This document shows, piece by piece, positions 10,622 through 50,592 of a stretch of DNA of 64,000 nucleotides; within the stretch, counting starts at the first letter, position 1, and each line of letters starts with the position of its first letter. The notes beneath the pieces were generated by a model. That model ran no database searches. It was not told where the DNA came from and saw nothing but the letters and a program-made list of their open reading frames with translations. The position numbers and the translations under genes were made by a program. The DNA comes from Patescibacteria group bacterium (lineage in GTDB: Bacteria; Patescibacteriota; Microgenomatia; UBA1400; PJMF01), in NCBI GenBank assembly GCA_040879165.1, contig JBBDKV010000017.1:23739-87738 (forward strand). Reading direction: 5' to 3'.

Positions 10622-11675
10622 GCTACTAGATGCAGGTATCAACATCAAGGACTTTCAAATAAGTGCTAAAGATTTAGACCAACAATTTAGGCAGGTTGGT
10701 AACATCTTACTCAATCTTGGCTGGTTTACCCAAGATTATGCCACTGGTTATCAATGCTCGCAGTGCGGTGCTGTTCATGAGGTGGTGGCTTTCAATGGCA
10801 AGTATTTTATTGGCTGTGATGTGGACGGAGATTCTGGTTTAGAGACACTGAGCAAAGATGATCTATTGATCTATCGTTTTTCAGCCACGAAGTTCTTTGA
10901 ATGGTTGCAACAATCTTTCTCCTTGCAGGGTAATGTTGAATCCACTGACGATAGGGTATTACTTGGTCAGGGAACGGTAAACGGCAAGCAACGTCTGTTT
11001 ATATTCAGCCATGAAAACTCACCCGAAGCAAGAAAAGTACTCTGTCAGAAATACCTTATCAGTCAGCCTTTGATTCTCTACCTCAGCACCATTCACGATA
11101 ATCACAATCAGGGATATGACATCAACTTGGCTCATTATCTAGTAGTGCAAGAAATGGGTTTGAGCATCGATACAAACTCAGCTTTGAGTGCGATTGCAGA
11201 TTCCATACCGCCGTTTGCAGGTGAGGCTCAGACAAACTCAAGCATTTATGCCATTGAATTGAAGCTTGTGGGTGACAAAATTGTGCTAGTTGGCACAGCT
11301 CTTGGTGGTTCGTATCCAGCGTTCAAAGCCAAGAAGAAAAGAAGCACTGCCATGTCTAGATTGTTGAGAACCCTGCTCAATTTGCATGAGAACGATAAGG
11401 AAACTACCTCTGTAATTTACAAACAAAGCGTGCTTGAGGCGAACTACATTGACCCACGAAAAAACAAGCTAAATGACCTTGCAGAAATTGATCTCAGTCA
11501 AGACAAGCGACCACTGAGTGAACTCTGCTCACTCTTACTACCATACTTACTCGCACACCGACACCACAAAGACGACGGCTTAGTGGTCGAGTTCAAACCC
11601 GCTTTGTCGCAAGAGAGCTGGAACAGACTCCCAGACTCAGAAAAACAGAAGATTCTAGCTTCAAAGGCTAATTAG
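10539..11675 (+). CDS. Hypothetical protein, about 360-378 aa, with an N-terminal CxxC motif
   Basis: Long ORF. CSQCGAVHE suggests a zinc-ribbon-like element. The likely true start is Met at 10592 (MSHSQTL), overlapping the upstream ORF by about 30 nt. Confidence 0.5.
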   Translation: MKQILTNSPRSAYRTGKSSMSHSQTLNKLLDAGINIKDFQISAKDLDQQFRQVGNILLNLGWFTQDYATGYQCSQCGAVHEVVAFNGKYFIGCDVDGDSGLETLSKDDLLIYRFSATKFFEWLQQSFSLQGNVESTDDRVLLGQGTVNGKQRLFIFSHENSPEARKVLCQKYLISQPLILYLSTIHDNHNQGYDINLAHYLVVQEMGLSIDTNSALSAIADSIPPFAGEAQTNSSIYAIELKLVGDKIVLVGTALGGSYPAFKAKKKRSTAMSRLLRTLLNLHENDKETTSVIYKQSVLEANYIDPRKNKLNDLAEIDLSQDKRPLSELCSLLLPYLLAHRHHKDDGLVVEFKPALSQESWNRLPDSEKQKILASKAN

Positions 11676-13148: not shown

Positions 13149-14264
13149 ATGTCAAAAACCAAAGACAAAAACGAACGCATCAAACGCAAGTATCTCAACT
13201 GGCTACAAGAGGCTGAGGGATTTTCAGAGAAGTCGATCACGGCGGTAGAAAAAGCTCTGTGGAAATATGAAGATTTTATCAAGGATTCAGACTACAGCAC
13301 GTTCAATCATAAGCAGGCTGAACAATTCAAGAAATATCTGACAACCAACAAAAATAAGGTCAGTAACAAAATCCTCTCACTGAGATCGCAATATCACATC
13401 CTCAGGCACGTTCGCAACTTCTTGACTTGGTTATCTGGACAGCTTGGCTATAAGTCCCGTATCTCAACCTACGATGTCCAGTACTTGCAACTGAGCAAAA
13501 AAGATCGGCGGGTTGCGACCTCTGCCTCACTTCCAAAGTATCCCACCCTTGAGCAGATCAAACAGCTTTGTAGCTTTTCAGTTCAAACTGAGCTTGACCA
13601 GCGAGATCGAGCGTTGATAGCCTTTACTGCTCTAACAGGCATGAGAGATCAAGCGATTGTTACCTTGCCACTTGGTTGTTTTGACCAAGAGAAAATGCTC
13701 GTGCAACAGCTCCCAAGCAAAGGTGTTCAAACCAAGTTCAGCAAGGACATTTATACTACTCTTTTTCAGGTAGATGAAACGCTGGCTGGCTACTTTTTGA
13801 AGTGGTACGCTTATTTGAAAACGGAGAAGCATTTTGGGCTGGAAGATCCGATATTTCCGAGTACAGAGGTAGGTTTTGTTAGTAAAAATCACCATGCCTT
13901 TACCCCTATTGGTATTAGTAAAGAGTTCTGGGCAGATACCAATCCGATGCGAAAGATTTTTCAGGAGCGAAGCAAGCAAGCGAACGTGCCTTACTACACC
14001 CCCCATAAGTTCAGGCACTTCATCATCAATGAGGCTCAGAAACACATCACGAGCATTGAACAGCTCAAGGCTCTCAGTCAGAACCTGGGTCATGAAAACA
14101 TAAGCACCACTTTTCATGGCTACGGAGCAATTGATACTTATCGAGTCAATGAGTTGGTCAGTTCTATTGATTTTTCAGGACTTCCCAAGAACCAAGCAGA
14201 AGAAGCTCAACTTGAAAGAATCGCTGATCTTGTCGCTAAAAAATTAGGAAGAAATGAGCTATAA
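13149..14264 (+). CDS. Tyrosine recombinase / phage-type integrase
   Basis: The C-terminal catalytic region has HKFRHF and LGHENISTTFHGYGAI, the R..H..R..Y signature. Confidence 0.85.
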   Translation: MSKTKDKNERIKRKYLNWLQEAEGFSEKSITAVEKALWKYEDFIKDSDYSTFNHKQAEQFKKYLTTNKNKVSNKILSLRSQYHILRHVRNFLTWLSGQLGYKSRISTYDVQYLQLSKKDRRVATSASLPKYPTLEQIKQLCSFSVQTELDQRDRALIAFTALTGMRDQAIVTLPLGCFDQEKMLVQQLPSKGVQTKFSKDIYTTLFQVDETLAGYFLKWYAYLKTEKHFGLEDPIFPSTEVGFVSKNHHAFTPIGISKEFWADTNPMRKIFQERSKQANVPYYTPHKFRHFIINEAQKHITSIEQLKALSQNLGHENISTTFHGYGAIDTYRVNELVSSIDFSGLPKNQAEEAQLERIADLVAKKLGRNEL

Positions 14265-14294
14265 TGTTAGTGTTGACCCAAGTTATAGTGGTGC

Positions 14295-16040
14295 ATGAAA
14301 AAAGGCAGTTCTGCCAACGTATGCACTATGTTGGGTCAACCAGGACTGTCTTTTTATATGAGAATAAGAAAAACACTTACTAGCCTCAAGCCAAGAAAAT
14401 CTGGTCACCCCAAGCAGAATCGGTACATTCTATATGCCCGTAAGTCTACTACCTCAGAAGACCGTCAAGTTGCTTCGATTGAGTCCCAGATCGAAGTGAT
14501 GAAAGAGGTAGCTCGTGAGCATGATTTGGAAGTTTCAGAGGTATTGAGTGAAGCAGGTTCAGGCTTCAAGATAGGTAGACAAGCGTTCAATGCCATGATC
14601 GAAAAGATCGAAAGCGGTGAAGCTGATGGCATCATTGTCTGGAAGCTCTCACGCTTATCTCGTAACCCTGATGATGCGGGCAAAATCATGGGCTTACTGC
14701 AACGAGGTGAAATCAAGCACATTCGCACCGCAGACCGCAACTGGTATCCAGAAGACAACGTGATGATGATGTATGTTGAGTTTGGTATGACCAACCAGTT
14801 TAGTCGTGATCTGAGTTCAGACACTCGCCGAGGATTAGTCAAAAAAGCTGAGCGTGGTTGGTTGCCGAACGCCATTCTCCCACTTGGCTATATGCACAGC
14901 CCATACAAAAAGTTAGGTGATGAAGAAATTATCATTGATAAAAGCCGTTTTGACTTGATTCAAGAGGGTTTGAAGCTGGTAGCTTCTGGACAGAAAACAC
15001 CTGTTGAAGCTCATGGCTATTTAGTTACTCAAGGTGTTGTGGGAAAAAGAAGTGAAGCATTACCTAAAAGCACTTGGTACAAGATGTTAGTTGAACCACT
15101 ATACGCAGGGACTTTTGAGTATCCAATAGGTAGTGGTCAGTTTTATGACTCCAAAGCACCCAGAGCCATAGAACCGACTGAGTACGATGCCATTCAAGTT
15201 GTTTTAGGTAGAAAAGATAAGCCTCGACCCAAGACTCACTTTTTGCCTTACACGGGTTTGATGAAGTGCGGTGAGTGTGGTTGCTCCATTACTGCTGAAA
15301 AGAAGCGGAAAGTGCAGAAAAATGGTAACGTGCATCACTATATCTACTATCACTGTACCAAGAAAAAAGGCGAGTGTGGTCAGCCGTGTACGCCTGTTGA
15401 TACACTTGAGAAGCAATATAAGTCCATTTTGAAACGTATCAAAATCCCCTTAGCCTTTCACGAATGGGCTATTGATGAGATCAAATATGACCAAGAAAAA
15501 GTCATCAGGGATCGTGACACCAGCCTACAACGAACTCGAACAAACTACGATGACTGCCTGAGTGAGATTGATAACTTGGTAAAGAAATACCTTGAGGGGA
15601 AAGTGCCAGAAGACTACTATGATCGCAACCTTGCCAAGCTCAATAAAAACAAAAAGACATTGGCGAAAATCTTGGAGGGTATAGACAAAGGTGTCGATGA
15701 AAACTTGGAAAAAATCGATAAAGACCTAGATTTTGCCGTAACAGCCAGAAGACGCTTCAACCAAGGCAACGACTCCAAACGTCGAGAGATCATTTCCTAT
15801 TTAGGCTCGAACCTCATCCTCAAAGACCATTCACTCGGCATTGAGCTGAGAAAACCGCTGGAATTGGTGGCAGAAATTGCAGAAGAAGTCAATGCTGTTG
15901 CAGAAAAGTTCGAACCTCTAGAAAATGCTGATAATTCGGCACAATTTAAGTTGTATTTGTCTGAAAATCCTGCAATGGGTGGTATACCGGACTTGAACCG
16001 GCGACCTCCGCTGCCACAGAGCGGCGCTCTAACCAACTGA
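14295..16040 (+). CDS. Large serine recombinase (resolvase domain + recombinase domain + zinc ribbon)
   Basis: YARKSTTSEDRQVASIESQ carries the catalytic Ser. GIIVWKLSRLSRN is also present. The CGECGC...YYHCTKKK zinc ribbon fits this family, as does the 581-aa length. The 3' end overlaps tRNA-His. Confidence 0.85.
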   Translation: MKKGSSANVCTMLGQPGLSFYMRIRKTLTSLKPRKSGHPKQNRYILYARKSTTSEDRQVASIESQIEVMKEVAREHDLEVSEVLSEAGSGFKIGRQAFNAMIEKIESGEADGIIVWKLSRLSRNPDDAGKIMGLLQRGEIKHIRTADRNWYPEDNVMMMYVEFGMTNQFSRDLSSDTRRGLVKKAERGWLPNAILPLGYMHSPYKKLGDEEIIIDKSRFDLIQEGLKLVASGQKTPVEAHGYLVTQGVVGKRSEALPKSTWYKMLVEPLYAGTFEYPIGSGQFYDSKAPRAIEPTEYDAIQVVLGRKDKPRPKTHFLPYTGLMKCGECGCSITAEKKRKVQKNGNVHHYIYYHCTKKKGECGQPCTPVDTLEKQYKSILKRIKIPLAFHEWAIDEIKYDQEKVIRDRDTSLQRTRTNYDDCLSEIDNLVKKYLEGKVPEDYYDRNLAKLNKNKKTLAKILEGIDKGVDENLEKIDKDLDFAVTARRRFNQGNDSKRREIISYLGSNLILKDHSLGIELRKPLELVAEIAEEVNAVAEKFEPLENADNSAQFKLYLSENPAMGGIPDLNRRPPLPQSGALTN

Positions 16041-16052
16041 GCTAATACCACC
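15977..16052 (-). tRNA. tRNA-His (GTG)
   Basis: Manual cloverleaf. G-1 plus acceptor GTGGTAT/ATACCAC with C73. D-arm GCTCAGTTGGTTAGAGC. Anticodon loop CTGTGGC. T-arm GCCGG-TTCAAGT-CCGGT. Confidence 0.85.
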
Positions 16053-16200: not shown

Positions 16201-16953
16201 TTAGTAACCTGAAACTACACAAACACCACTGTTTAATGCTTCATCAAGTGGATTACTCACAACTTTGCCATCAATGGTATAGGTCGTATCCTGTTCTCCA
16301 CTGAAGAGATCTGCGCTCATGCTTGTTCCAACAGATTCTGCCATGGCTCCATCTCTATAAAACTGCGCTACAGTCACTCGCTCATTTTCAGAATACCGGC
16401 ATTCCATTTTGCCATTATTTGGCATTTGCTCAACATACAAGCACTTTCCGTCAACAATTCCAAAAATCTCTTTTTCCAACATATCACCTGTGAGTGGGTG
16501 TTCAAATGTAGTTTTGTAATCAGTGCAAGAATCTAGTTTATCAGCAAAAACCATTTGAGCGTCTTGTGCTTCGCTTAGAGCAACAGGTTCCTCTTGTTGT
16601 GCAGCTGTTCCAGTAGCCGTTTCGATCTCATTTTCACCAGATAGCTCAACTTCATTTGACAGTGCTGGTGTTTCTTCTGATTTGAATAAAGTTTGGCTGG
16701 CCAGATATGCTCCACCACCTACTAGTGCCACACCTACTAAAATTGCTGCAATAATTTTCCAAGTATTGCTTGAAGCAACAGCCGGACCTGCTGAAGACAA
16801 TTCTGGCACATCCTGCGTAGTAAGACTACTAAGTGCCTCCTCGGCATCTTGGTCTTGCCAACCATTGGCTACCAGCGATGATTTAATTTGCTCTCGACTC
16901 AAACCCTGTTGACTTTGTTCTTTAATGTATTCAAGTACTTGTTGATTCACCAT
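16201..16953 (-). CDS. Hypothetical membrane-anchored protein (single TM)
   Basis: 250 aa with a central hydrophobic helix (IIAAILVGVALVGGGAYL) and an acidic extracytoplasmic C-terminal domain. Confidence 0.45.
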   Translation of the reverse strand: MVNQQVLEYIKEQSQQGLSREQIKSSLVANGWQDQDAEEALSSLTTQDVPELSSAGPAVASSNTWKIIAAILVGVALVGGGAYLASQTLFKSEETPALSNEVELSGENEIETATGTAAQQEEPVALSEAQDAQMVFADKLDSCTDYKTTFEHPLTGDMLEKEIFGIVDGKCLYVEQMPNNGKMECRYSENERVTVAQFYRDGAMAESVGTSMSADLFSGEQDTTYTIDGKVVSNPLDEALNSGVCVVSGY

Positions 16954-17143: not shown

Positions 17144-18184
17144 ATGAATACTGACAACTCAACAAACGCACTAAAGAAACAGACGGCAAGTGGCACTGAG
17201 GCTCCGCTTGAAACACCACTTCGTGACGGTGCTCCAGAACAGCCAAACAAGCTTGAGACCGACATGATCGGAGTAATTGAGATCCAGTGGCAATTGGCTG
17301 AAGATATTCGACAACTGGCAATTGATTTGGGCGTGACAGATGCTGATGAGAGTCAGTTTTTCGAAGTGCCGCCAGATATTCGCCAGGCTGTTGAATTGCA
17401 GAGTGAGTTTGCAGAAAAACAGGAAGAGCTAAAAAACGCCACGTTAGAGTCAGATAGAATTCATATCCAAGAACAATTGGTCAGGCTGTACGTCGAGTTC
17501 TCCTATAACACTATTCTGTTGCTCAAAAAGAATTTTAACGCTCGGTTACGTCAACTAACTGCTACACCAGATAGCTCAGTTGATGGAGAATTAGAACAAG
17601 AACTCAGCAAGACGGATGCACTCATTACACTGCTGCATGAGAGTGGCACGCTGCTTGCCAAGTTAGAAGTGTTCAAGTTTGATACGGAAAATATTTTCAG
17701 AAAAGTTGATCTAGCTAGCTTGGAAATTTCGCCAGATTCTCAAGAGGAGTCAAGCGCCGCAGACAAGACTGTACAATCTACTGAGATCAGACTTAAAGAA
17801 TTGCTGTATGAGCTAAATCAGGTTTTGTACGTTCAGCTTGGGAAAAATACGGCAGATTTGCCAGACTTTGATCAATTGCAGGCTCGAGTGCTGCCTGATC
17901 AAATTGAAAAGCTCACAGAGATTAAGCCAGAAGTCATTGCTGAATTATTAGAACATCTTAGTAGCTATAAAGAGCAGTTGCTCAAGGAAATATACGAAGC
18001 CAATCGCCCTACATCGTACGAGAGTCAAGACACTGAGCTGACTGACCAACAAAACGAGATTCAAGCAGAGGTTGCAGACACATTTGAGTTACATCAAGAA
18101 GGGGAAAATACTAACGACACCAACGACGATCAGCAACGTTCTTTTTCGTTTCCCAAAAGCAATCAGAGAAATCAAGCGGCTTAA
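17144..18184 (+). CDS. Hypothetical acidic, coiled-coil-rich protein
   Basis: 346 aa, Glu/Asp/Gln-rich with repetitive heptad-like segments. Confidence 0.45.
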   Translation: MNTDNSTNALKKQTASGTEAPLETPLRDGAPEQPNKLETDMIGVIEIQWQLAEDIRQLAIDLGVTDADESQFFEVPPDIRQAVELQSEFAEKQEELKNATLESDRIHIQEQLVRLYVEFSYNTILLLKKNFNARLRQLTATPDSSVDGELEQELSKTDALITLLHESGTLLAKLEVFKFDTENIFRKVDLASLEISPDSQEESSAADKTVQSTEIRLKELLYELNQVLYVQLGKNTADLPDFDQLQARVLPDQIEKLTEIKPEVIAELLEHLSSYKEQLLKEIYEANRPTSYESQDTELTDQQNEIQAEVADTFELHQEGENTNDTNDDQQRSFSFPKSNQRNQAA

Positions 18185-18224: not shown

Positions 18225-18300
18225 TGGTGCGCCAAGCTGGACTCGAACCAGCGACCTACTGCTTAGAAGGCAGTTGCTCTATCCACTGAGCTATTGGCGC
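18225..18300 (-). tRNA. tRNA-Arg (TCT)
   Basis: Acceptor GCGCCAA/TTGGCGC. D-arm GCTCAGTGGATAGAGC. Anticodon stem ACTGC/GCAGT with loop CTTCTAA. T-arm GCTGG-TTCGAGT-CCAGC. CCA encoded. Confidence 0.85.
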
Positions 18301-18490: not shown

Positions 18491-19747
18491 ATGAAGATAT
18501 CCTATGTCACTGCTCACGAAATTCTTGATTCTAATGGTCGTCCTACGATTGAGGTAGAGGTTGGCCTGGATGATGGCACGACGGCGCTGGGGCAAGTTCC
18601 CTCAGGTGCTTCCACTGGCTCAAAGGAAGCTATCGAGCTGCGCGATCACGATGATAAGCGATACTTTGGTAAAGGGGTGCTCAAAGCAGTAGAGAATGTT
18701 GAAACACATATCTCACAAGCACTTGAAGGTCAGGATGCGAACGATCAGGCAGCAATTGACCAAATTCTGCTCGACCTAGATGGCACTGACAATAAAAGTC
18801 GCCTTGGTGCAAATGCCATGGTCGGTACTTCTATGGCCGTCTGTCGCGCTGCCGCACTCAGTACAAAAAACCCTCTCTATCAGTATCTTGGAGAAATTAC
18901 TGGCAACCAAACATTCTCCATGCCCGCACCGATGATCCTACTCATGGAAGGTGGCAAGCACGGCAACTGGGCGACTGATATCCAAGAATTTTGTGTGTTT
19001 CCGTTAACTGGGGCTTTTGCTTCTTTTCGTGAAACACTGCGTGCTGGTGCAGAAATTTTTCACACGCTTGGGCAAATTTTGGCCAACAAAAACTATGACG
19101 TGGGCGTTGGTTTTGAGGGAGCGTATGCTCCCAAACAACTTAGCTCAAATGCCGAGGCTTTTGACATCATAATGTCAGCCGTTGAGCAGAGTGGCTATAC
19201 GATGGGGCGACATTTTGTTTTTGCAATTGACATCGCAGCCAGCGAATTTTTCCATGATGGTACATATATTTTAGCAAGCGAGGATAATAAAGAAATGACT
19301 CCTGATGCCTGGGAGCGACAGGTGCTTGACTGGGCAAACCAGTATCCTATTTGGTCAATAGAGGATCCATTTGATGAGCAGGACTGGGCACATTGGTCCC
19401 ACTTTAATCAAACATTGAACAACACCAAGCAAGTGGTGGGTGATGATCTCGTCGTAACAAACGTAGCATTAATTCAGCAAGCCATTGAACAAAAAGCCAT
19501 GAACGCCACACTAATCAAGCTTAATCAAATTGGCACAGTTACAGAGACTTTGGCGGCTATCACACTTTCACAAAAAGCCGGATTTAATTCAGTAATTTCT
19601 CACCGCAGTGGCGAAACCAATGACAATTTTATTGCTGACTTGGCAGTTGGCACAGTGGCAAATCAATGCAAATTTGGCGGGCCTGATCGGGGAGAGCGGT
19701 TGGCAAAGTACAATCGGTTATTAAGAATTGAAAATGAGTTGAGGTAA
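18491..19747 (+). CDS. eno: Enolase (phosphopyruvate hydratase)
   Basis: N-terminal ISYVTAHEILDSNGRPTIEVEV and the conserved SHRSGETND motif. 418 aa. Confidence 0.95.
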   Translation: MKISYVTAHEILDSNGRPTIEVEVGLDDGTTALGQVPSGASTGSKEAIELRDHDDKRYFGKGVLKAVENVETHISQALEGQDANDQAAIDQILLDLDGTDNKSRLGANAMVGTSMAVCRAAALSTKNPLYQYLGEITGNQTFSMPAPMILLMEGGKHGNWATDIQEFCVFPLTGAFASFRETLRAGAEIFHTLGQILANKNYDVGVGFEGAYAPKQLSSNAEAFDIIMSAVEQSGYTMGRHFVFAIDIAASEFFHDGTYILASEDNKEMTPDAWERQVLDWANQYPIWSIEDPFDEQDWAHWSHFNQTLNNTKQVVGDDLVVTNVALIQQAIEQKAMNATLIKLNQIGTVTETLAAITLSQKAGFNSVISHRSGETNDNFIADLAVGTVANQCKFGGPDRGERLAKYNRLLRIENELR

Positions 19748-19778: not shown

Positions 19779-20342
19779 CTACCCCCGAGAAACATAACTA
19801 CAAGTCTGTGTATCAATGACGACTAAATCGCCTGTTTTCACAAAAATTGGCACGGCAATTTTCATACCAGTTTCAAGCTCTGCTTCTTTGCGAGCTTGAC
19901 CAACCGTATTGCCCGCCGCTGCCTCCTCGGCGTGCTTGACTTTCAAACTGACTTTAGGAGGTAATGAAACGCCTATGGCTTTATCTTGGTAGAGCAATAC
20001 ATACACCTTACTATCACTAGTCAATAACTGCACTTGCTTACCAATCAGACTAACGGGCACACTAATTTGATCAAAGTTTCGCGGATCCATGAAAGTTGCT
20101 TCTGTGTCATCAGCGTAGAGGAACTGCAACTCGCGACTTACAACCTCAACTTCTTCAATCGGCTCGGTGGACTTGAACGTATATTCCTGCGTCGAGCCAG
20201 TTTCCGCGCTTCTGATTTTCGCCCGCATAAATGCCGAGCCCTTGCCAGGACTGACAAACTCAGTTTTGGTAACTTGATGGGGCACATTTTTGTGTAGAAT
20301 GTACTTTCCCTTGCGAATATTGCCTGCTTTGATGGTGGACAT
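19779..20342 (-). CDS. efp: Elongation factor P
   Basis: 187 aa. The KPGKG loop (SPGKGSAFMRAKIR) carries the modifiable Lys. Confidence 0.95.
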   Translation of the reverse strand: MSTIKAGNIRKGKYILHKNVPHQVTKTEFVSPGKGSAFMRAKIRSAETGSTQEYTFKSTEPIEEVEVVSRELQFLYADDTEATFMDPRNFDQISVPVSLIGKQVQLLTSDSKVYVLLYQDKAIGVSLPPKVSLKVKHAEEAAAGNTVGQARKEAELETGMKIAVPIFVKTGDLVVIDTQTCSYVSRG

Positions 20343-20372
20343 AGAGGTGAATTATAGCACTTCGCTTAATTT

Positions 20373-21134
20373 TCAGGCACAGCCTGATGCATTCACGCTA
20401 GATAAAAACTGAGTAGTAGAGAAACCAGTTTGTCTGGGTAGTGAAATGTACTCGCAATTACAAGCTTCGGCCCGCTCAAACATCTTGTCCTGATCTCGCG
20501 AACTCATATCATTGTTGCCAAAATAATACGTTGGCTTCAGTTTTTTTAATAACGAGGTATACCCACTGTCAGAGTAGGGAACTTTAGAAATTCTCATTAC
20601 TAAACCATCAAAACCAGATGCAAGAACCCACTGCCACCGCAACCAATCCTTGGCGAAAGGCTGGACAGATTTAAATTTTTTTGTCCTCCAGCCATCTTCC
20701 ATACCCAGAACAAGAATGTCGCATCGTTCGCGCGCCATTATAACATTTGCCCAATTGGCAGGAGTAAGCAAGCGATAGTGTCCGTGTACAAACCCAACTG
20801 TTTTTTGACTCTGCACATAAGTTTCAATTTTGGCACCAACCTCTTGCGAATGATGCACATGAGATTTTACACCATCGCCTGGAACATGCCAGGGAATTAA
20901 GTCGTTAATCGGAATATTCCGAGCAATCTCTTGATCGCAGAGAGCTGTTGAAAGCATGCGATAATAATCAAAACTTGTTGTTAATGCAATAGCTGATAGA
21001 CCGGCACAAAAAACCGCTCCACTGCGTTGGTCTCCAAATTGCTCTAGATATATCGATGCCGCACTTTTGACTTGATCGTCATACTCAGTCTGCCATGCTG
21101 CTCTTAAATACGCAGTATTTTCTTTATTCAGCAT
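20373..21134 (-). CDS. Cytidylyltransferase-like (HIGH-motif nucleotidyltransferase) protein with an N-terminal extension of about 110 aa
   Basis: GFVHGHYRLLTPANWANVIMARERCDILVLGMED aligns with the GxFDxxHxGH...D.LVV of the RfaE-II/TagD family. The downstream LASGFDGLVMRI and YSDSGYTSLL resemble the ISST region. Inference. Confidence 0.4.
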   Translation of the reverse strand: MLNKENTAYLRAAWQTEYDDQVKSAASIYLEQFGDQRSGAVFCAGLSAIALTTSFDYYRMLSTALCDQEIARNIPINDLIPWHVPGDGVKSHVHHSQEVGAKIETYVQSQKTVGFVHGHYRLLTPANWANVIMARERCDILVLGMEDGWRTKKFKSVQPFAKDWLRWQWVLASGFDGLVMRISKVPYSDSGYTSLLKKLKPTYYFGNNDMSSRDQDKMFERAEACNCEYISLPRQTGFSTTQFLSSVNASGCA

Positions 21135-21153
21135 GTTTTTTCAAATTAATATA

Positions 21154-22182
21154 TTAAATTGAAATTTCAAAAATCTCCTCACCCGTATAACTCACTACCT
21201 CACTCATTTTTCCGGAATCTGTCAATACCATCACCAGTCGATCAATCCCTAAGGCAATTCCAGCAGTTGGAGGCAAGCCTTTTTTCAGTGCTGATATAAA
21301 CTGCTCGTCAACGTCCCATGCTGGCAGCCCCTCAGCTTTACGCGCTTTGAGTTGCGCTTTGAGCCGCTTTTCCTGCTCATCAGCGTCGGTCAGCTCAGAG
21401 AACGCGTTGGCAATTTCCAGATTTCCAATATACAGCTCAAAGCGCTCCGCCAACCGCGGGTCGTCGGGCTTCAATCGTGCAAGCGCTGCCTGACTAGCTG
21501 GGTAATCATACAAAAAGGTTGGTCTTGTTTTGCCCAGTTCTGGCTCGACTTCATTGAGCATAATTTGATAAAAAATGTCATCGTAACTGGTGGTATCTGT
21601 AATGCGGTAGCCTTTTTCTTCAGCTCGCGCTCGCAGCTTTTTGACATCAAAAAATTCATCTTCAGTAATCCCAGCGTATCGCTCAAATGCCTCCAGCACA
21701 CTCAGTCGTTCCCACGGCGTACTCATGTCAAGAGTCAGGTCTTGATACCGCAACTTCTTGCCATGCTTGGAATCTACTGCCTGCCAGGCTTCCAGCACCA
21801 ACTTCTCACAGTCCACCATGAGGCCACGATAATCTGCCTCAGGTCGATACCACTCCATAATTGTAAACTCGGGATTGTGCAATCGTGTCACTGGCTCACA
21901 GTTACGAAAACTTTTACAAATCTGGAAAATTGGTCCACTGCCTGCAGCAAGCAGTTTTTTCATTTGAAACTCAGGACTAGGAGCTAAATACCCAACTTTC
22001 TCAAGCTCACCCAGCTGCCAGGTGGTTTCAAACAATAAAATACTCGGTTCGGGATCAGGATTAGCCAAAAAGAGCGGCGTATCCACTTCAAGAAAATCCT
22101 GCTGAATAAAAAACCAGCGGATTGATTGGATAATCTGCGCTCGCTTACGCAGTGTATTTATTTTGGGTGTATATTGAGTCAT
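21154..22182 (-). CDS. epmA: EF-P lysine-lysyltransferase EpmA (truncated class II LysRS paralogue)
   Basis: Class II aaRS catalytic motifs (FFIQQDFLEVDTP, ...FELYIGNLEIANAFSEL..., GIALGIDRL). 342 aa. It sits upstream of efp on the same strand. Confidence 0.8.
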   Translation of the reverse strand: MTQYTPKINTLRKRAQIIQSIRWFFIQQDFLEVDTPLFLANPDPEPSILLFETTWQLGELEKVGYLAPSPEFQMKKLLAAGSGPIFQICKSFRNCEPVTRLHNPEFTIMEWYRPEADYRGLMVDCEKLVLEAWQAVDSKHGKKLRYQDLTLDMSTPWERLSVLEAFERYAGITEDEFFDVKKLRARAEEKGYRITDTTSYDDIFYQIMLNEVEPELGKTRPTFLYDYPASQAALARLKPDDPRLAERFELYIGNLEIANAFSELTDADEQEKRLKAQLKARKAEGLPAWDVDEQFISALKKGLPPTAGIALGIDRLVMVLTDSGKMSEVVSYTGEEIFEISI

Positions 22183-22391
22183 GGGAAGTTGAACTCATTA
22201 CGAAACTTAAACTACTATTAATTTTGAATATATTTGATGCATTTTAGCAGTTTTTGGACGACGATAGTACCCCCATGAATACTTGCCACGCAGATGCTCA
22301 GCTTGGCGGGCGTAGCCACAGCTACTTGAGGAGGACAAAAATGCTATAAATGTTCAAATAGATTTGAAAGAAATGTGGTTTAAGTTTTGTA

Positions 22392-23129
22392 ATGAGTTCA
22401 GTATATAATGCCAGAATCATGACAGCACAGCCTACAATTAAACTGCAAGCCTATATTGCCCAACATGGCGTTACTTCACGCCGAAAAGCTGAAGAGCTAA
22501 TCGAAGCTGGCAAGGTCGTGGTCAATGGAGAGCGTGCCCATATTGGCCAGCGTATTGATCCAAATACAGCGGTGGTTTTGGTCGCAGGGGAACGGATCGG
22601 CAAGCCCATCAATGCCAAATACTTTCTTATTTACAAACCACGTGGCGTCATCTCCACCACTAGTGATGAGCTTGGGCGGCGCACAGTCTTAAGCCTCATC
22701 CCGCCGCAAGATGAGCGACTATATCCTGTTGGACGACTTGACCGTGACAGCGAAGGTCTGATGCTACTCACCAATGACGGTGATCTGGCACATAAGTACA
22801 CACACCCCTCCTTTGGAGTTGAAAAAACGTATCGGGTTACACCTGATAGACGCCTCAGTCGTGATGCCTATGAGCACTTGGAGCGCGGTGTCAAACTCAA
22901 AGATGGTTGGGCAAAACCAACCGCACTTGCTGAGCTACACAACGATGATTCTGGAGAGCTTGAGATAACCATGACTGAGGGGCGCAACCAAGAAATTCGC
23001 CGCATGCTCAGAAGGGTGGGGTATGAGGTTGCGCGACTCATCCGCGTCAGGTTGGGAGATTTTCACTTGTCAGATCTCAATGGTGCTGACTGGATCGAGC
23101 TGCAATCAAATGACGTGTCGAGTAATTAA
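22392..23129 (+). CDS. S4-domain pseudouridine synthase (RsuA/RluB family)
   Basis: S4 segment LQAYIAQHGVTSRRKAEELIEAGKVVVNG. Catalytic motif YPVGRLDRDSEGLMLLTNDG. Confidence 0.85.
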   Translation: MSSVYNARIMTAQPTIKLQAYIAQHGVTSRRKAEELIEAGKVVVNGERAHIGQRIDPNTAVVLVAGERIGKPINAKYFLIYKPRGVISTTSDELGRRTVLSLIPPQDERLYPVGRLDRDSEGLMLLTNDGDLAHKYTHPSFGVEKTYRVTPDRRLSRDAYEHLERGVKLKDGWAKPTALAELHNDDSGELEITMTEGRNQEIRRMLRRVGYEVARLIRVRLGDFHLSDLNGADWIELQSNDVSSN

Positions 23130-24115: not shown

Positions 24116-25762
24116 ATGACCCAAGAACAAGCACTAACCATTCTCAAAACTGGTGCCAATGTCTTTCTGACAGGTGAGCCTGGTAGTGGAAAAACGCACA
24201 CAGTGCTCGAGTATATTCAGTACTTACACCAACACGACTTGCGCGTAGCAGTCACTGCATCCACCGGCATTGCCGCCACACATTTAGCTGGCATGACCAT
24301 ACATTCTTGGAGTGGCATAGGCGTACGCAAATCCCTCACACTACGAGATAAAGTATTGCTACAAGAGAAAACACCACTGGTCACTCGAGCGCAAAAAACC
24401 AATGTTCTCATTATTGACGAAATATCTATGCTTGATGCCAGTGTGCTCAACACCGTGGACGAAGCACTACAAACTCTGCGTGATTCTGATGAACCCTTTG
24501 GTGGTCTACAGGTTATTTTTGTGGGCGACTTTTTTCAATTGCCCCCTGTGTCTCGCGATGAAGTAGTTGAGTTCGCCTACACAGCAACTTCCTGGAAAGC
24601 TGTTCAACCAGTCATTTGCTATCTGACTGAACAACATCGACACGAAGACTCGCAACTAGCTGACTTTCTGCGCGCCATTCGTAGTGGTCAGGAATATCTG
24701 GATGAACACTCCTTGCTCCATAGCCGAAGAATGGAGTTTGATATGTCAGAAACCATCACCCGCCTGTATTCCCACAATGCCGATGTTGATGGCGTTAACT
24801 CTGCCAAATTAGAAGCGATTGAAGAAGAACGTAAAGAGTTTACAATGACGAGCAAGGGACGAAAAAACATGATAGAACAGCTGCAAAAAGGCTGCCTCTC
24901 TCCCGCACTTTTGTCACTAAAAGTGGGTGCGCAAGTGATGTTCACCAAAAATAATTATGAATCAGGCTTCGTCAACGGTACTTTGGGAGAAGTAGTTGGT
25001 TTTAACGCCGAAGACCTCCCAATAATCAAAACCAAACAAGGTCAGCACATCACTGCAGAACCAATGGAGTGGCAGATTGAAGATAATGGCAAAGTACTGG
25101 CAAGCATTACCCAACTTCCTCTCAGACTTGCCTGGGCAATTACTGTACATAAGAGTCAAGGCATGACGCTAGATGCCGCAATCATCGATCTTTCCCGAGC
25201 CTTTGAATACGGACAGGGCTACGTTGCGCTCTCGCGCGTCCGATCAAGTGAGGGTTTGTACGTCATAGGATTTAATGAGCGATCGCTCCAAGTTCACCCA
25301 GATATCATCCAAGCAGATCAGAATTTTCAACAACTCTCTGAAAAGGCTGAGGATCGACTCAATGCCTATTCTGAGGATGCGCTCGTAAAAAAGCATCGCA
25401 ATTTTATTCTCAATCACGGCGGCTCACTCAAAAAAATTGCCATATCAGATAAAAAATCTGCGATAACCACTGTGGACAAAACCCTCGCATTATTTAATCA
25501 GGGTAAAAGCATTGCAGAGATCGCATCCGAGCGGGGCTTAAAAGAAAATACCATCATCAGTCATCTTGAAGAGTTAGTGTTTGGCGCCCAGCTGGAAAAA
25601 GAAAAAATCTTAGCTGAGATTCCATCTAAACTAGCCAAAAAACTACCGCGCATTCACAAAGTCCTGGCCAAGATGGAAGACAACCGGCTCGGACCAGTTT
25701 ATTATGCGCTCAAGGGGAAGTTTAGTTACGAGGAATTGCGGTTGGCAAGGATGGTGCGGTAG
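24116..25762 (+). CDS. PIF1/RecD-like ATP-dependent DNA helicase with a C-terminal HTH
   Basis: Walker A GEPGSGKTH, TASTGIAATHLAGMTIHSW, Walker B LIIDEISM and VHKSQGMT. The C-terminal HTH is KSIAEIASERGLKENTIISHL. Confidence 0.8.
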   Translation: MTQEQALTILKTGANVFLTGEPGSGKTHTVLEYIQYLHQHDLRVAVTASTGIAATHLAGMTIHSWSGIGVRKSLTLRDKVLLQEKTPLVTRAQKTNVLIIDEISMLDASVLNTVDEALQTLRDSDEPFGGLQVIFVGDFFQLPPVSRDEVVEFAYTATSWKAVQPVICYLTEQHRHEDSQLADFLRAIRSGQEYLDEHSLLHSRRMEFDMSETITRLYSHNADVDGVNSAKLEAIEEERKEFTMTSKGRKNMIEQLQKGCLSPALLSLKVGAQVMFTKNNYESGFVNGTLGEVVGFNAEDLPIIKTKQGQHITAEPMEWQIEDNGKVLASITQLPLRLAWAITVHKSQGMTLDAAIIDLSRAFEYGQGYVALSRVRSSEGLYVIGFNERSLQVHPDIIQADQNFQQLSEKAEDRLNAYSEDALVKKHRNFILNHGGSLKKIAISDKKSAITTVDKTLALFNQGKSIAEIASERGLKENTIISHLEELVFGAQLEKEKILAEIPSKLAKKLPRIHKVLAKMEDNRLGPVYYALKGKFSYEELRLARMVR

Positions 25763-28249: not shown

Positions 28250-29305
28250 TTAAAAATAATTATTCACCGCAAAATGATACTGATCTAAAAACAACCTTTT
28301 TAGATGATACATATTATTAGTTTCATAAAAAATTATGAGCGCTTGCTTATATTCGTTTTCATTTATGCTTCTATATGAAAGTGGAAAGTGGTCATATGCT
28401 AAAAGTACGGCATTTGAAAGCATTCTGGCTGTTCGTTTATTGCCATCAGCAAATGGTTGAATATAAGTCATTAGAGCAGAGACAATCAGAGCCTTTTCAA
28501 GAGGATGAGCTGTCTTATTGACCAAATTAATCATCTTCTTAACCGCCTCTTTTAGCTCCCAAGCATGTGACAATGGTTTGTATGTGGTGCCAGTTATCCC
28601 CACTGCCTGTTTTCTAATACCACTTGTTATTGGCAAGTTTTTGGTTAACACACCATGAAGTTCCAGTACGTCCTTGGTTTGAAGTTTCTTAAAGCTCGTT
28701 CGATGCTCAATGAGTGTTTTACATGCATCTTTGTGATTTAAAATCATGTCTGCTTCTTCTCTGCTTTTACCTTTTGCCTCAATGCCTTGTTTAATCAGGC
28801 TCTCTGTTTCAAGCAAGCTATAGGTATTTCCTTCAATTTTCGAAGATTTCCAAGAAAGCTCAATCACATAACGCTCTAGCTCTCTCTCAAGAATAGTGGG
28901 GTCAAGTTTTTTCGTAGATTTGTCAAAAGAACGAAATGTTTTGTCCAAAGCACTTTGCTCTGGACTTTCTAGTAATCCTGGAAGCAATTCGAAAACTCCA
29001 GCATCAAACACGGTTTTAGCTAGCTTTCTATTATCAGGCTCTATAGAAAAATATTGCTTGAGATCAACATATGCAAGAAGTGGGTGTGTCGAAGCTGTAT
29101 TATATGCTGTACTTGGACCACTACCAATAGAAATGATGAGTCCTTTTTTAACCAAGTATTTGAGATCTCTTGCGAGGGTGGCTTTGGAAGATTGAAAAGC
29201 CTCCGGTAGCCTGGCTGAAAGCCTTTCTCTAGAAATACTCTTGGTCTTGGCAATAGTATTTACTATTTCTTTCTGCCTAGTGTTCAGTTTTATCGTCTCA
29301 TTCAT
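28250..29305 (-). CDS. Fic/DOC family protein with an N-terminal wHTH and a degenerate Fic motif
   Basis: The motif region reads QPFADGNKRTARML, against the canonical HPFx(D/E)GNGRxxR. The catalytic His is replaced by Gln, and the second Gly by Lys. Confidence 0.7.
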   Translation of the reverse strand: MNETIKLNTRQKEIVNTIAKTKSISRERLSARLPEAFQSSKATLARDLKYLVKKGLIISIGSGPSTAYNTASTHPLLAYVDLKQYFSIEPDNRKLAKTVFDAGVFELLPGLLESPEQSALDKTFRSFDKSTKKLDPTILERELERYVIELSWKSSKIEGNTYSLLETESLIKQGIEAKGKSREEADMILNHKDACKTLIEHRTSFKKLQTKDVLELHGVLTKNLPITSGIRKQAVGITGTTYKPLSHAWELKEAVKKMINLVNKTAHPLEKALIVSALMTYIQPFADGNKRTARMLSNAVLLAYDHFPLSYRSINENEYKQALIIFYETNNMYHLKRLFLDQYHFAVNNYF

Positions 29306-48780: not shown

Positions 48781-50592
48781 TTATAACACCTTCTTCTGGT
48801 ACAAGTCACCATCCTCAAAGCCACGCTTGCGGTAGTATTCTCGAGTACCAATTGCAGAAATAACTGCTAAGCTATCAAAGCCCGCAGCTCTACTCAAGAC
48901 TTCGGCTTCTTGTAATAAACGGGTACCAAATCCAGCATGCTGAGATTTACCCAATGCTGATTTTCCTAGTTGCGCCAACTTGCCATAGACGTGAACTTCT
49001 CGGATAATAGCCGTGTTTTCAAGCTCAGTAACGAAACCAGGCTCAGTTGGCAAACTTAATCGCAAAAATGCCACCAACTTGTCGTCTTCAGTCACAAATT
49101 CTAGGAATTTCTCAGTGCTTGAACTTGTTTGGTAGTCATAGCATCTTAGTGAAACTTGTCCTGGATTCACAACCAGATCTCTTACCTCACGAGCGCGGAT
49201 GTCTCGAGAAGTAAAGCCCTTTTTAGCCAGTGACTGCTCAGCAATTTGACGAAAATTAGTCAGCTTATTGCCTTCCACAATATCAGTGGATGGAATATCG
49301 CGAATCACTCGGGTCAAACGACAATATTCTGGAGTCACCTCAAAAGCGTGCTCCAACACCGAAAGTAATTCCTCATAGGTATAGGTCTGCCACTTGCCCT
49401 CTTTGTGATACTGCATCAATTCAGCAGTACCAATCAAGGAACAAGGGTACACCTTCAACTCGTCAGGCCTGAAGTCTGGATCTGAAAATAGTAGCTGGTA
49501 ATCTTTCTTATCAGCTTCCACACTGGAGCCGTACAAGTTAGCCATCCAGTGAGCGTGAATTTTAAAACCGGCTTGACGCAGCAGCTTGATTGCTCGACGA
49601 GAAGACGCAACATCGTGACCGCGTTTATTTTTCTCAAGCACGCTATCCTGCAAACTCTGCAAACCTATTTGTGTTTTCGTGCAGCCTAAACGACGAATAC
49701 GCAACACTTCAGCCTTAGAAATATTATCTGGCCTCGTCTCAATCACGAGCCCAACACAACGAACATTCGCCGACTCATTCAAATCCTGCTGTGCTTTCAA
49801 CTCTGACCACTCAGCCTGTTGATACAAATGAAAACCACCCGTAATTTCTGGTGCGACATAGAGTTCAGAAACCGTATGATTGTAGGTTTTATCAATTTTG
49901 ACTCCATTGATTTGATGTTGCTGGAAGGCCTTTTTATTCTCCATCGGATCGTTACTCATGCTAATAGTTTTATTTTTTTTCAGTGCTGCGCGCATTTCGT
50001 CATACCGTATCAATACCTGAGAGCGCTCATCACGCTTGCCAAAGTCATTCAGTGCACGAAAACATTCCTCGATAAACCAAATCTGATACGCTTCCGGATA
50101 ATACGACCAAGTACCACCCAGCACGATAATTTCCACTTTATCAACATCATGACCAATGTTTTGCAACGCTTGCAATCGATTGTAAGTCTGCAAATAGGGA
50201 TCAAAATAATTTCGCTCGGCACGCTGCGCGCCGGGCTCATCCGCCAAATAACTCTTGGGCATCCGAATATCATTCGGACAAAAAATACATTTGCCTGGGC
50301 AGGGAAACGGTTTAGTGAGCACTGTCACTGGTGCCACACCAGACATCGTTCTCATTGGCTTCATCTTAATTCTATCCAACAGATCTGAGCCCAAATCCGC
50401 GCGTTTTTTTTCAGTCAATCCACGATACACAGAAACCAGCTGGTTTTTGGTGAAAAACGAGCCATCAGCTTTGGGAAACTGCTTTAATAACTGAAAATAA
50501 CGTCTTTTCTTGAACGGCTGCTCAACTGCTAAAACCTTTAGCATCGCTAGTCCCTGTGCCGCATCCTGATTAGATAGCTTGGTATATATCAT
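48781..50592 (-). CDS. Elp3-like radical SAM / GNAT acetyltransferase (tRNA wobble-uridine modification family)
   Basis: CPGKCIFCPN radical-SAM cysteine motif. C-terminal GNAT fold (GFGTRLLQEAEVLSRAAGF...YYRKRGF). 603 aa. Confidence 0.7.
   Translation of the reverse strand: MIYTKLSNQDAAQGLAMLKVLAVEQPFKKRRYFQLLKQFPKADGSFFTKNQLVSVYRGLTEKKRADLGSDLLDRIKMKPMRTMSGVAPVTVLTKPFPCPGKCIFCPNDIRMPKSYLADEPGAQRAERNYFDPYLQTYNRLQALQNIGHDVDKVEIIVLGGTWSYYPEAYQIWFIEECFRALNDFGKRDERSQVLIRYDEMRAALKKNKTISMSNDPMENKKAFQQHQINGVKIDKTYNHTVSELYVAPEITGGFHLYQQAEWSELKAQQDLNESANVRCVGLVIETRPDNISKAEVLRIRRLGCTKTQIGLQSLQDSVLEKNKRGHDVASSRRAIKLLRQAGFKIHAHWMANLYGSSVEADKKDYQLLFSDPDFRPDELKVYPCSLIGTAELMQYHKEGKWQTYTYEELLSVLEHAFEVTPEYCRLTRVIRDIPSTDIVEGNKLTNFRQIAEQSLAKKGFTSRDIRAREVRDLVVNPGQVSLRCYDYQTSSSTEKFLEFVTEDDKLVAFLRLSLPTEPGFVTELENTAIIREVHVYGKLAQLGKSALGKSQHAGFGTRLLQEAEVLSRAAGFDSLAVISAIGTREYYRKRGFEDGDLYQKKVL

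What the first reader, a model, noticed from the sequence alone, without database searches (positions are those of the whole stretch)
19779..22182. epmA, then a cytidylyltransferase-like gene, then efp in one operon, with no epmB in the neighbourhood
EF-P has the lysine-type KPGKG loop and EpmA is present. The gene wedged between them encodes a HIGH-motif nucleotidyltransferase-like protein with an unusual N-terminal extension of about 110 aa, not the lysine 2,3-aminomutase EpmB. This could be an alternative or additional EF-P modification activity, or an unrelated passenger.
Basis: inference. Interest (0 to 1): 0.5.

Follow-up and report, generated by a model that had tools for sequence, protein, structure and literature searches.

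The report
Orphan gene inserted between epmA and efp
In this ultra-small (Patescibacteria) bacterium an uncharacterised nucleotidyltransferase-like gene sits between the EF-P lysine ligase gene epmA and efp, but every relative examined has epmA directly next to efp and keeps this gene elsewhere, so it is most likely a passenger and not a new EF-P modification enzyme.

Summary
The three minus-strand genes are real. epmA (21154-22182) scores above the curated EpmA cut-off. efp (19779-20342) has Lys34 in an SPGKG loop. Between them lies a 253-aa gene, X (20373-21134).

X is a confident two-domain protein. An N-terminal helical domain of about 105 aa has no detectable relatives. The C-terminal Rossmann domain is closest to HldC, TagD and PanC.

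The X family is very small and seems confined to Patescibacteria-like metagenome sequences. In seven independent contexts it never sits beside epmA or efp.

Thirteen CPR-type epmA loci were compared, counting the window; twelve are relatives. Ten relatives have efp directly after epmA. An eleventh (79% identical EpmA) shows efp starting before its contig ends. The twelfth has an unrelated insert. None carries X.

efp keeps its own conserved extended -10 box, so "one operon" is not shown.

No epmB lies in the 64 kb window or near any CPR-type epmA. The nearest non-CPR relatives have epmA-efp-epmB. EpmA keeps the beta-lysine gate alanine. Whether epmB lies elsewhere in the genome could not be tested.

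Verdict: a lineage-specific passenger insertion; modest interest.

The parts
21154..22182 (-). epmA, the EF-P lysine aminoacylase (342 aa). It is a class II LysRS-like catalytic core without an anticodon-binding domain. Ala310 aligns with the E. coli A298 beta-lysine gate.
   Evidence: TIGR00462 358 bits (cut-off 287) and PF00152. Ala at the gate position in this and every CPR-type EpmA compared. The role of the gate is taken from bioRxiv 10.64898/2026.07.07.736966.
20373..21134 (-). X, a 253-aa orphan protein. It has an N-terminal helical domain (~1-105, with a PWHVP linker motif) and a C-terminal HUP/cytidylyltransferase-like Rossmann domain. The signature is remodelled: HGHYR..TPAN replaces GxFDxxHxGH, while K155, R166 and the C-terminal GFSTT are retained.
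19779..20342 (-). efp, elongation factor P (187 aa). It is lysine-type, with K34 in the loop VSPGKGSAF.
   Evidence: TIGR00038 202 bits (cut-off 186) and three EF-P Pfam domains. The loop alignment with E. coli and CPR EF-Ps is.
20351..20359 (-). Extended -10 promoter-like element TGcTATAAT, 8 nt upstream of the efp ATG. It predicts a leaderless or near-leaderless efp transcript that is independent of epmA and X.
   Evidence: Read directly from the sequence. The same TGnTATAAT lies 8-9 nt before efp in L007, L008 and L035, which lack X. The consensus scanner did not call it because there is no -35 match. Function is inferred.
22183..22391 (.). Divergent intergenic region between epmA (-) and the pseudouridine synthase gene (+). 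It is the presumed promoter region of epmA, and possibly of X.
   Evidence: Gene layout. The same divergent pseudouridine synthase / epmA arrangement occurs in L007, L008 and L010. No promoter has been verified.
18491..19747 (+). Enolase, convergent with efp. It is a synteny anchor: the ancestral layout is rluB-like <- | epmA -> efp -> | <- eno.
   Evidence: TIGR01060 512 bits. The same convergent enolase follows efp in L010.
22392..23129 (+). RluB/RluF-like pseudouridine synthase, divergent from epmA. It is a synteny anchor.
   Evidence: PF00849 plus S4 and TIGR00093. The position is conserved in L007, L008 and L010.

Best explanation
epmA-efp is the two-gene EF-P lysylation module that is conserved in Patescibacteria. 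In the lineage of this MAG, an unrelated orphan gene (X) was inserted into the short epmA-efp spacer. The insertion lies upstream of efp's own promoter.

X encodes a divergent member of the cytidylyltransferase-like (HldC / RfaE-domain-II / TagD) nucleotidyltransferase superfamily, fused to a family-specific N-terminal helical domain. It most likely binds an NTP and transfers the NMP to a phosphorylated small-molecule acceptor, or forms an adenylate. This chemistry is inferred from the fold and from the retained phosphate-binding residues. X has no dedicated role in EF-P modification.

EpmA is predicted to ligate (R)-beta-lysine to EF-P Lys34 as in E. coli. The source of beta-lysine is unresolved: it could be an epmB outside the window, or uptake from outside.
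For: Shown:
- Gene identities.
- K155, R166 and the C-terminal GFSTT motif are conserved.
- X is a very small family. It has 16 proteins among 5.8 billion clusters. A profile search of 1.84 billion representatives gave 11 hits at E<1e-30 and 44 at E<1e-10.
- Seven independent X contexts have no epmA or efp and share no neighbour: L001/2, L003, L004/5, L092, L093, L101/2 and L103-6.
- EpmA relatives at 64, 56, 50, 50 and 45-43% identity have efp 26-194 bp (approximate) downstream of epmA, without X. The 79% relative (L007) shows efp starting about 57 bp after epmA, just before its contig ends.
- None of the 80 GTDB epmA loci contains X.
- The flanking anchors (pseudouridine synthase, enolase) are conserved around epmA-efp in relatives. 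The difference is therefore an 0.8 kb insertion.
- X has lower GC3 than both neighbours.
- The TGnTATAAT box before efp is conserved with and without X.
- Another CPR lineage (L037) has a different, unrelated 198-aa ORF at the same junction. The spacer therefore tolerates insertions.
Against: X is tightly packed with its neighbours (19 nt and 30 nt gaps), is co-directional, and no terminator was predicted between the genes. It is therefore probably co-transcribed with epmA, and co-expression could be functional.

No epmB lies in 64 kb, so something must supply EpmA's substrate.

The X contexts come from relatives that are only 37-50% identical. No close relative carrying X was found for comparison of the junction.

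X's substrate is unknown and its HxGH motif is altered, so its activity is inferred, not shown.
Confidence: 0.8

Rival explanations
1. X is a lineage-specific accessory enzyme of EF-P modification. It could activate or alter the acyl donor used by EpmA in the absence of EpmB. Alternatively it could further decorate lysyl-EF-P, by nucleotidylylation or by PanC-like adenylate-mediated ligation.
Against: X homologues are never next to epmA or efp in seven other contexts. The X family is very small, whereas CPR-type EpmA is common and works without X. All 12 other CPR-type loci lack X, and 0 of 80 GTDB loci have it. A HUP-fold enzyme cannot perform 2,3-aminomutase chemistry (established knowledge). 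efp has its own promoter.
Confidence: 0.06
2. X is a catalytically inactive nucleotide-binding protein, a pseudoenzyme or sensor, and not a transferase. It would still be unrelated to EF-P.
For: Both histidines of the catalytic HxGH motif are replaced by T124 and N127, and the preceding FD by YR. No curated family model recognises X.
Against: The replacement residues are themselves invariant or nearly so in the family, together with a new H117-G-H119-x-R121 motif. That pattern indicates selection on a remodelled site, not decay. The phosphate-binding K155 and the GFSTT motif are retained. T-x-x-N at this position has a working precedent: the TIGN signature of TrpRS is equivalent to HIGH (PMC10201369). 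From my own knowledge, PPAT uses TxGH.
Confidence: 0.12
3. The gene order is an assembly or binning artefact, a chimeric join inside the MAG contig.
For: The window comes from a metagenome-assembled genome. X has lower GC3 than its neighbours.
Against: A separate Logan assembly of run SRR27977663 reproduces window 20599-23002 at 100% identity over 2404 bp. That span covers the epmA-X junction and 178 codons of X. The reading frames are intact and the spacers are short on both sides.
Confidence: 0.02

Closest known systems
HldC / HldE (RfaE) domain II, D-glycero-beta-D-manno-heptose 1-phosphate adenylyltransferase
   Different: X scores 19 bits against a cut-off of 181.5. HxGH is replaced by TPAN, FD by YR, and the KGxxRP arginine-proline is lost. 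X carries an extra ~105-aa N-terminal helical domain. Patescibacteria are not known to make LPS heptose (own knowledge). Sequence identity is 14-17%.
Glycerol-3-phosphate cytidylyltransferase TagD and the CCT/ECT cytidylyltransferases (PF01467)
   Different: X has no PF01467 hit at E<=0.1, an altered HxGH, and an added N-terminal domain.
Pantothenate synthetase PanC (N-terminal domain)
   Different: PanC has HxGH and a C-terminal lid domain. X has neither, and has no Pantoate_ligase Pfam hit.
E. coli EpmA-EpmB-(EpmC) / EF-P beta-lysylation pathway
   Same: EpmA is above the equivalog cut-off. Ala is present at the A298 gate. EF-P has Lys34 in a PGKG loop.
   Different: epmB is absent from the 64 kb window and from the flanks of all 13 CPR-type loci. 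It lies within 10 kb of epmA in 35 of 71 other GTDB loci. epmA and efp are adjacent and co-directional here.
epmA-efp-epmB operon of the nearest non-CPR relatives (L097/L098 named Chloroflexota; L100 taxon unknown)
   Same: These are the closest non-CPR relatives found, with EpmA about 48-52% identical. They share the epmA -> efp order and strand.
   Different: They carry epmB (Radical_SAM, with LAM_C in L097/L098) immediately after efp. In the window's lineage efp is followed by a convergent enolase, and X sits between epmA and efp.

Membership tests
EpmA (EF-P--(R)-beta-lysine ligase, TIGR00462) | Scores above the curated equivalog cut-off | tested here: met
   358.3 bits against 286.9; NF006828 318 bits against 264
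EpmA (EF-P--(R)-beta-lysine ligase, TIGR00462) | Class II LysRS-type catalytic core without an anticodon-binding domain | tested here: met
   342 aa; PF00152 covers residues 9-332. The LysRS models match only their C-terminal ~320 positions and score below cut-off
EpmA (EF-P--(R)-beta-lysine ligase, TIGR00462) | Alanine at the backbone-selectivity gate (E. coli A298; Gly gives alpha-lysine preference) | tested here: met
   Ala310 in the window and Ala in all 16 EpmAs aligned. The role of the gate is from bioRxiv 10.64898/2026.07.07.736966
EpmA (EF-P--(R)-beta-lysine ligase, TIGR00462) | Ligates beta-lysine to EF-P Lys34 | not testable with these tools
   Needs biochemistry or mass spectrometry
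EF-P, lysine type (TIGR00038) | Three EF-P domains, score above cut-off, and Lys at the tip of the domain I loop | tested here: met
   201.9 bits against 185.8; PF08207, PF01132 and PF09285; loop VSPGK34GSAF aligned to E. coli VKPGK34GQAF
Complete EpmAB(C) pathway | A KamA-family lysine 2,3-aminomutase (EpmB) encoded in the genome | tested here: inconclusive
   None in the 64 kb window, by tblastn at E<=1e-5 and by an EpmB HMM at E<=10 with a positive control. The rest of the 113.6 kb contig and of the MAG could not be reached. A search with a Chloroflexota EpmB gave no CPR-named hit among the best 120
Cytidylyltransferase-like superfamily (PF01467 CTP_transf_like; HUP nucleotidyltransferases) | Rossmann-like HUP fold of the nucleotidyltransferase type | tested here: met
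Cytidylyltransferase-like superfamily (PF01467 CTP_transf_like; HUP nucleotidyltransferases) | Significant match to the family model | tested here: not met
   No Pfam family at E<=0.1 and no PDB sequence at E<=1. Homology shows only at profile level: hhalign 99.7% to canonical relatives that do hit PF01467
Cytidylyltransferase-like superfamily (PF01467 CTP_transf_like; HUP nucleotidyltransferases) | N-terminal (H/T)xGH signature after strand 1 | tested here: not met
   The aligned position reads T124-P-A-N127. The H117-G-H119 tripeptide lies seven residues upstream of the motif position and is not the motif
Cytidylyltransferase-like superfamily (PF01467 CTP_transf_like; HUP nucleotidyltransferases) | C-terminal ISTT-type phosphate-binding motif | tested here: met
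   G237-F-S-T-T241 aligns with the STT of canonical relatives. The threonine is invariant and the flanking glycine and serine nearly invariant in the family
HldE domain II / HldC (TIGR02199) | Equivalog-domain score; KGxxRP motif | tested here: not met
   19 bits against a cut-off of 181.5. X reads K155-S-V-Q-P where canonical relatives have KGxxRP
Pantothenate synthetase PanC | Pantoate_ligase model match, HxGH motif and C-terminal lid domain | tested here: not met
   No PF02569 hit for X. X has no domain after the Rossmann fold

The most novel reading that the evidence does not exclude
In this Patescibacteria lineage EF-P Lys34 is modified without a canonical EpmB, and X takes part. X would be a remodelled HUP-fold adenylate- or nucleotidyl-forming enzyme with a private N-terminal domain. 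It would either provide or alter EpmA's acyl donor, or add a second group to lysyl-EF-P. That would be a new branch of EF-P modification chemistry.

A weaker, separate version does not involve X: CPR bacteria in general run EpmA without EpmB, on scavenged beta-lysine or on alpha-lysine. That version is considerably more likely (my estimate about 0.3), but these tools could not test it.
Probability: 0.06. Interest if true: 0.6.

Novelty: new variant of a known kind. Interest (0 to 1): 0.25.

Why it matters
The headline idea, a new EF-P modification enzyme wedged into an epmA-efp operon, is probably wrong. That is a useful negative: adjacency in a single compact CPR genome is weak evidence of function.

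Two smaller points remain.
- X defines an undescribed subfamily of the cytidylyltransferase superfamily, seen so far only in Patescibacteria-like sequences. It has TPAN in place of HxGH, a new HGHxR motif and an added helical domain. Its substrate is unknown.
- CPR-type epmA-efp modules consistently lack the epmB that follows efp in their nearest non-CPR relatives, yet they keep the beta-lysine gate alanine. If whole-genome searches confirm that epmB is missing, these symbionts would have to import beta-lysine or lysylate EF-P differently. That would be a concrete, testable dependency on the host.

Tried and rejected
- My first Python pass took the wrong record from a multi-record FASTA, so its "EpmB_Ec" hits are spurious. 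This was fixed.
- The exact-sequence look-up of X (P0001) found no record. The window's EpmA was found only on a 2.4 kb Logan contig. The rest of the 113.6 kb contig could therefore not be fetched.
- Fold search against afdb50 was unavailable.
- The X profile found no PDB sequence at E<=1.
- PADLOC gave no match. PHROGs gave only weak HldE-like matches. I ran these because several X loci lie beside restriction-modification, Shedu-like, BrnT, AbiEii or GIY-YIG genes, so I considered a defence role. I dropped the idea for lack of any model match or consistent partner.
- There was no X homologue in GenBank phages or IMG/VR contigs, so X is not visibly phage-borne.
- The genes immediately upstream of X in L101 and L103 were tested as possible conserved partners or EpmA fragments. 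They are unrelated to each other and to EpmA.
- The metagenome scan for X returned only 5 loci.
- I searched for a CPR EpmB using a Chloroflexota EpmB as query, then cluster names and one context look-up. These produced only non-CPR epmA-efp-epmB operons and no CPR evidence either way.
- Literature searches for EpmA, EpmB or aminomutase in Patescibacteria found nothing relevant.
- The sigma-70 scan of the locus was at background level, 6 sites against 4.9 expected.
Full report
**Observation**

The stated span holds three co-directional minus-strand ORFs:
- 21154-22182 (342 aa)
- 20373-21134 (253 aa, here called X)
- 19779-20342 (187 aa)

The gaps are 19 and 30 nt. The window matches a Patescibacteria MAG contig of 113,573 bp.

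The first ORF is EpmA. It scores 358 bits on TIGR00462 against a cut-off of 287, and has only a class II catalytic core. The last ORF is EF-P: TIGR00038 at 202 bits against 186, with all three EF-P domains. Its loop reads VSPGK34GSAF. It is therefore lysine-type, but not literally KPGKG.

An independent Logan assembly reproduces window 20599-23002 at 100% identity, including the epmA-X junction. An assembly artefact is therefore unlikely.

**What X is**

X has no Pfam hit. Its only curated match is weak: RfaE domain II at E=1e-3, 19 bits against a cut-off of 181.5.

With an alignment of 15 homologues, AlphaFold2 gives a confident model (pLDDT 90, pTM 0.88). Residues 1 to about 105 are helical and match nothing. 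Residues about 105-250 form a Rossmann domain. Its best structural matches are:
- then Fom1 cytidylyltransferase, FAD synthetase, ECT/CCT, ATP sulfurylase, NMNAT and PPAT

No PDB sequence matches the family profile even at E<=1.

A full scan of 1.84 billion cluster representatives found 11 hits at E<1e-30 and 44 at E<1e-10. It then trails into proteins of about 165 aa and about 500 aa. The 165-aa proteins I aligned hit PF01467. The 500-aa ones match only in their C-terminal part; I take them to be HldE-like, but did not check.

Profile-profile alignment of the X family to the canonical ~165-aa relatives is unambiguous (hhalign 99.7%, E=1e-25) and ungapped across the signature. Canonical VGxxxGxFDxxHxGH corresponds to X's VGFVHGHYRLLTPAN. 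The true HxGH position is T124-P-A-N127, and the FD is Y120-R121.

These replacement residues are invariant or nearly so within the family. So are K155, R166 and the C-terminal GFSTT, which aligns to the canonical STT. The T..N pattern has a working precedent: the TIGN signature of TrpRS is equivalent to HIGH (PMC10201369).

I therefore read X as a remodelled but probably still active nucleotidyl- or adenylyl-transferase of unknown substrate. The activity is inferred, not shown.

**Is X linked to EF-P?**

Viewed from X, no. Homologues at 37-50% identity were recovered in seven independent contexts:

| Loci | Neighbours of X |
|---|---|
| L001/L002 | PEMT/ICMT-family gene, a large PD40-repeat protein, an S8 peptidase |
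| L003 | restriction-modification and Shedu-like genes |
| L004/L005 | BrnT, a PNPOx-like gene, pyrimidine biosynthesis genes |
| L092 | unrelated ORFs, read from translations only (no domain search) |
| L093 | small hypothetical genes |
| L101/L102 | a 216-aa unknown gene, GIY-YIG |
| L103-L106 | an unknown gene, an alpha/beta hydrolase |

None contains epmA or efp, and no neighbour recurs.

Viewed from EpmA, also no. The closest relatives share the layout pseudouridine synthase <- | epmA -> efp -> | <- enolase, with efp directly after epmA and no X.
- L007 has an EpmA 79% identical. Its contig ends 90 bp into efp, so only the N-terminus of EF-P is seen.
- L008 (64%) shows complete epmA and efp; the contig ends just after efp.
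- L010 (56%) also shows the convergent enolase.

A scan of one genome per GTDB species returned 80 epmA loci, and none contains X. Thirteen CPR-type loci were compared, counting the window. Ten have efp 26-194 bp (approximate) downstream on the same strand, and L007 is the truncated case above. The remaining two are the window and L037 (Amesbacteria). L037 carries a different, unrelated 198-aa ORF at the same junction.

X also has lower GC3 (0.36) than epmA (0.45) and efp (0.47). The simplest reading is a lineage-specific 0.8 kb insertion into a spacer that tolerates insertions.

**Operon claim**

Immediately upstream of efp lies TGcTATAAT (20359-20351), 8 nt before the ATG. The same extended -10 element sits 8-9 nt before efp in L007, L008 and L035, which lack X.

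efp therefore probably has its own promoter and a leaderless transcript, and X was inserted upstream of it. X may be co-transcribed with epmA: the gap is 19 nt and no terminator is predicted. A single three-gene operon is not demonstrated.

**epmB**

No EpmB/KamA homologue lies in the 64 kb window. Searches used tblastn with E. coli EpmB and an HMM of about 50 EpmBs at E<=10 with a positive control. The only radical SAM gene is a bacterial Elp3.

None of the 13 CPR-type loci has epmB in the fetched flanks (up to 10 kb each side where the contig allows). It is present in 35 of 71 other GTDB loci (Fisher p=5e-4).

The nearest non-CPR EpmA relatives carry epmA-efp-epmB operons. These are L097 and L098 (named Chloroflexota, EpmA about 52% identical) and L100 (48% identical, taxon unknown).

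All CPR-type EpmAs nevertheless keep alanine at the E. coli A298 gate, which favours (R)-beta-lysine over alpha-lysine.

I could not test whether epmB lies elsewhere in these genomes. A search seeded with a Chloroflexota EpmB showed no CPR-named hit among its best 120, which is inconclusive. The held literature says nothing about EpmA or EpmB in Patescibacteria.

**Mechanism and rivals**

| Explanation | Confidence |
|---|---|
| Conserved epmA-efp module with X as an inserted passenger. EpmA lysylates EF-P Lys34; X is an unrelated small-molecule nucleotidyltransferase. | 0.8 |
| X is a catalytically dead nucleotide-binding protein. This concerns only X's own function. | 0.12 |
| X takes part in EF-P modification. 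| 0.06 |
| Assembly artefact. | 0.02 |

**Comparison and novelty**

EpmA and EF-P are ordinary members of known families.

X is homologous to the cytidylyltransferase-like superfamily but fails two of its defining tests, the family model and the HxGH motif. It passes two others, the fold and the C-terminal motif. I file it as a new variant (subfamily) of a known kind, not as HldC, TagD or PanC.

The finding as posed deserves modest interest. The residual value lies in the orphan subfamily and in the CPR-wide absence of a linked epmB.

Noticed in passing
window 20351-20359 (-); L007 ~2775-2783; L008 ~2799-2807; L035 ~11010-11018: An extended -10 element (TGnTATAAT) lies 8-9 nt upstream of the efp start codon. 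It is conserved in the window and three relatives and has no Shine-Dalgarno sequence. This suggests a leaderless efp mRNA with its own promoter in this CPR clade.
   Followed up: partly
L097 10001-12830, L098 5483-8311, L100 6418-9125, compared with the 13 CPR-type loci (window, L007-L016, L022, L024, L035, L037): The nearest non-CPR EpmA relatives have an epmA-efp-epmB operon. All CPR-type loci have epmA-efp with no epmB within the fetched flanks, yet keep the beta-lysine gate alanine. CPR bacteria may lack EpmB altogether or encode it at a distance.
   Followed up: partly
L037 10900-11496 (+): In a Candidatus Amesbacteria genome a different 198-aa ORF sits between epmA and efp. It has no Pfam match and is unrelated to X. 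It is a second, independent insertion at the same junction.
   Followed up: partly
window 48781-50592 (-): A full-length bacterial Elp3 homologue (radical SAM/GNAT tRNA U34 modification enzyme; TIGR01211 480 bits against a 350 cut-off). From my own knowledge Elp3 is uncommon in bacteria. It is the only radical SAM gene in the window.
   Followed up: partly
window 13149-16051: A tyrosine recombinase (13149-14264) is followed by a large serine recombinase (14295-16040). The 3' end of the serine recombinase overlaps tRNA-His (15977-16051, minus strand). Two Pfam-less ORFs (16201-16953, 17144-18184) and tRNA-Arg (18225-18300) follow. This may be an integrated element just upstream of the enolase/efp region.
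   Followed up: no
window 28250-29305 (-): A Fic/DOC-domain protein with an N-terminal DeoR-type HTH, lying inside a lower-GC block (26-38 kb, GC 0.38-0.41).
   Followed up: no
window 24116-25762 (+): A PIF1-like helicase with a C-terminal HTH_40 domain, two genes away from epmA.
   Followed up: no
L012, L013 (GTDB records CAYMVN010000004.1, CAZBFT010000029.1): These records are titled "uncultured Pseudomonadales" but carry the CPR-type epmA->efp arrangement. The L012 EF-P is 65% identical to the window's, and EpmA is 50% (L012) and 45% (L013) identical. The bins are probably taxonomically mislabelled.
   Followed up: no
L003 1-4781; L004 1378-1560 and 7793-8464; L101 3553-3942: X homologues often lie beside mobile or defence-type genes: a Shedu SduA_C gene, a ResIII/restriction endonuclease plus methyltransferase, a BrnT toxin, AbiEii and GIY-YIG. 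X itself matches no PADLOC model.
   Followed up: partly
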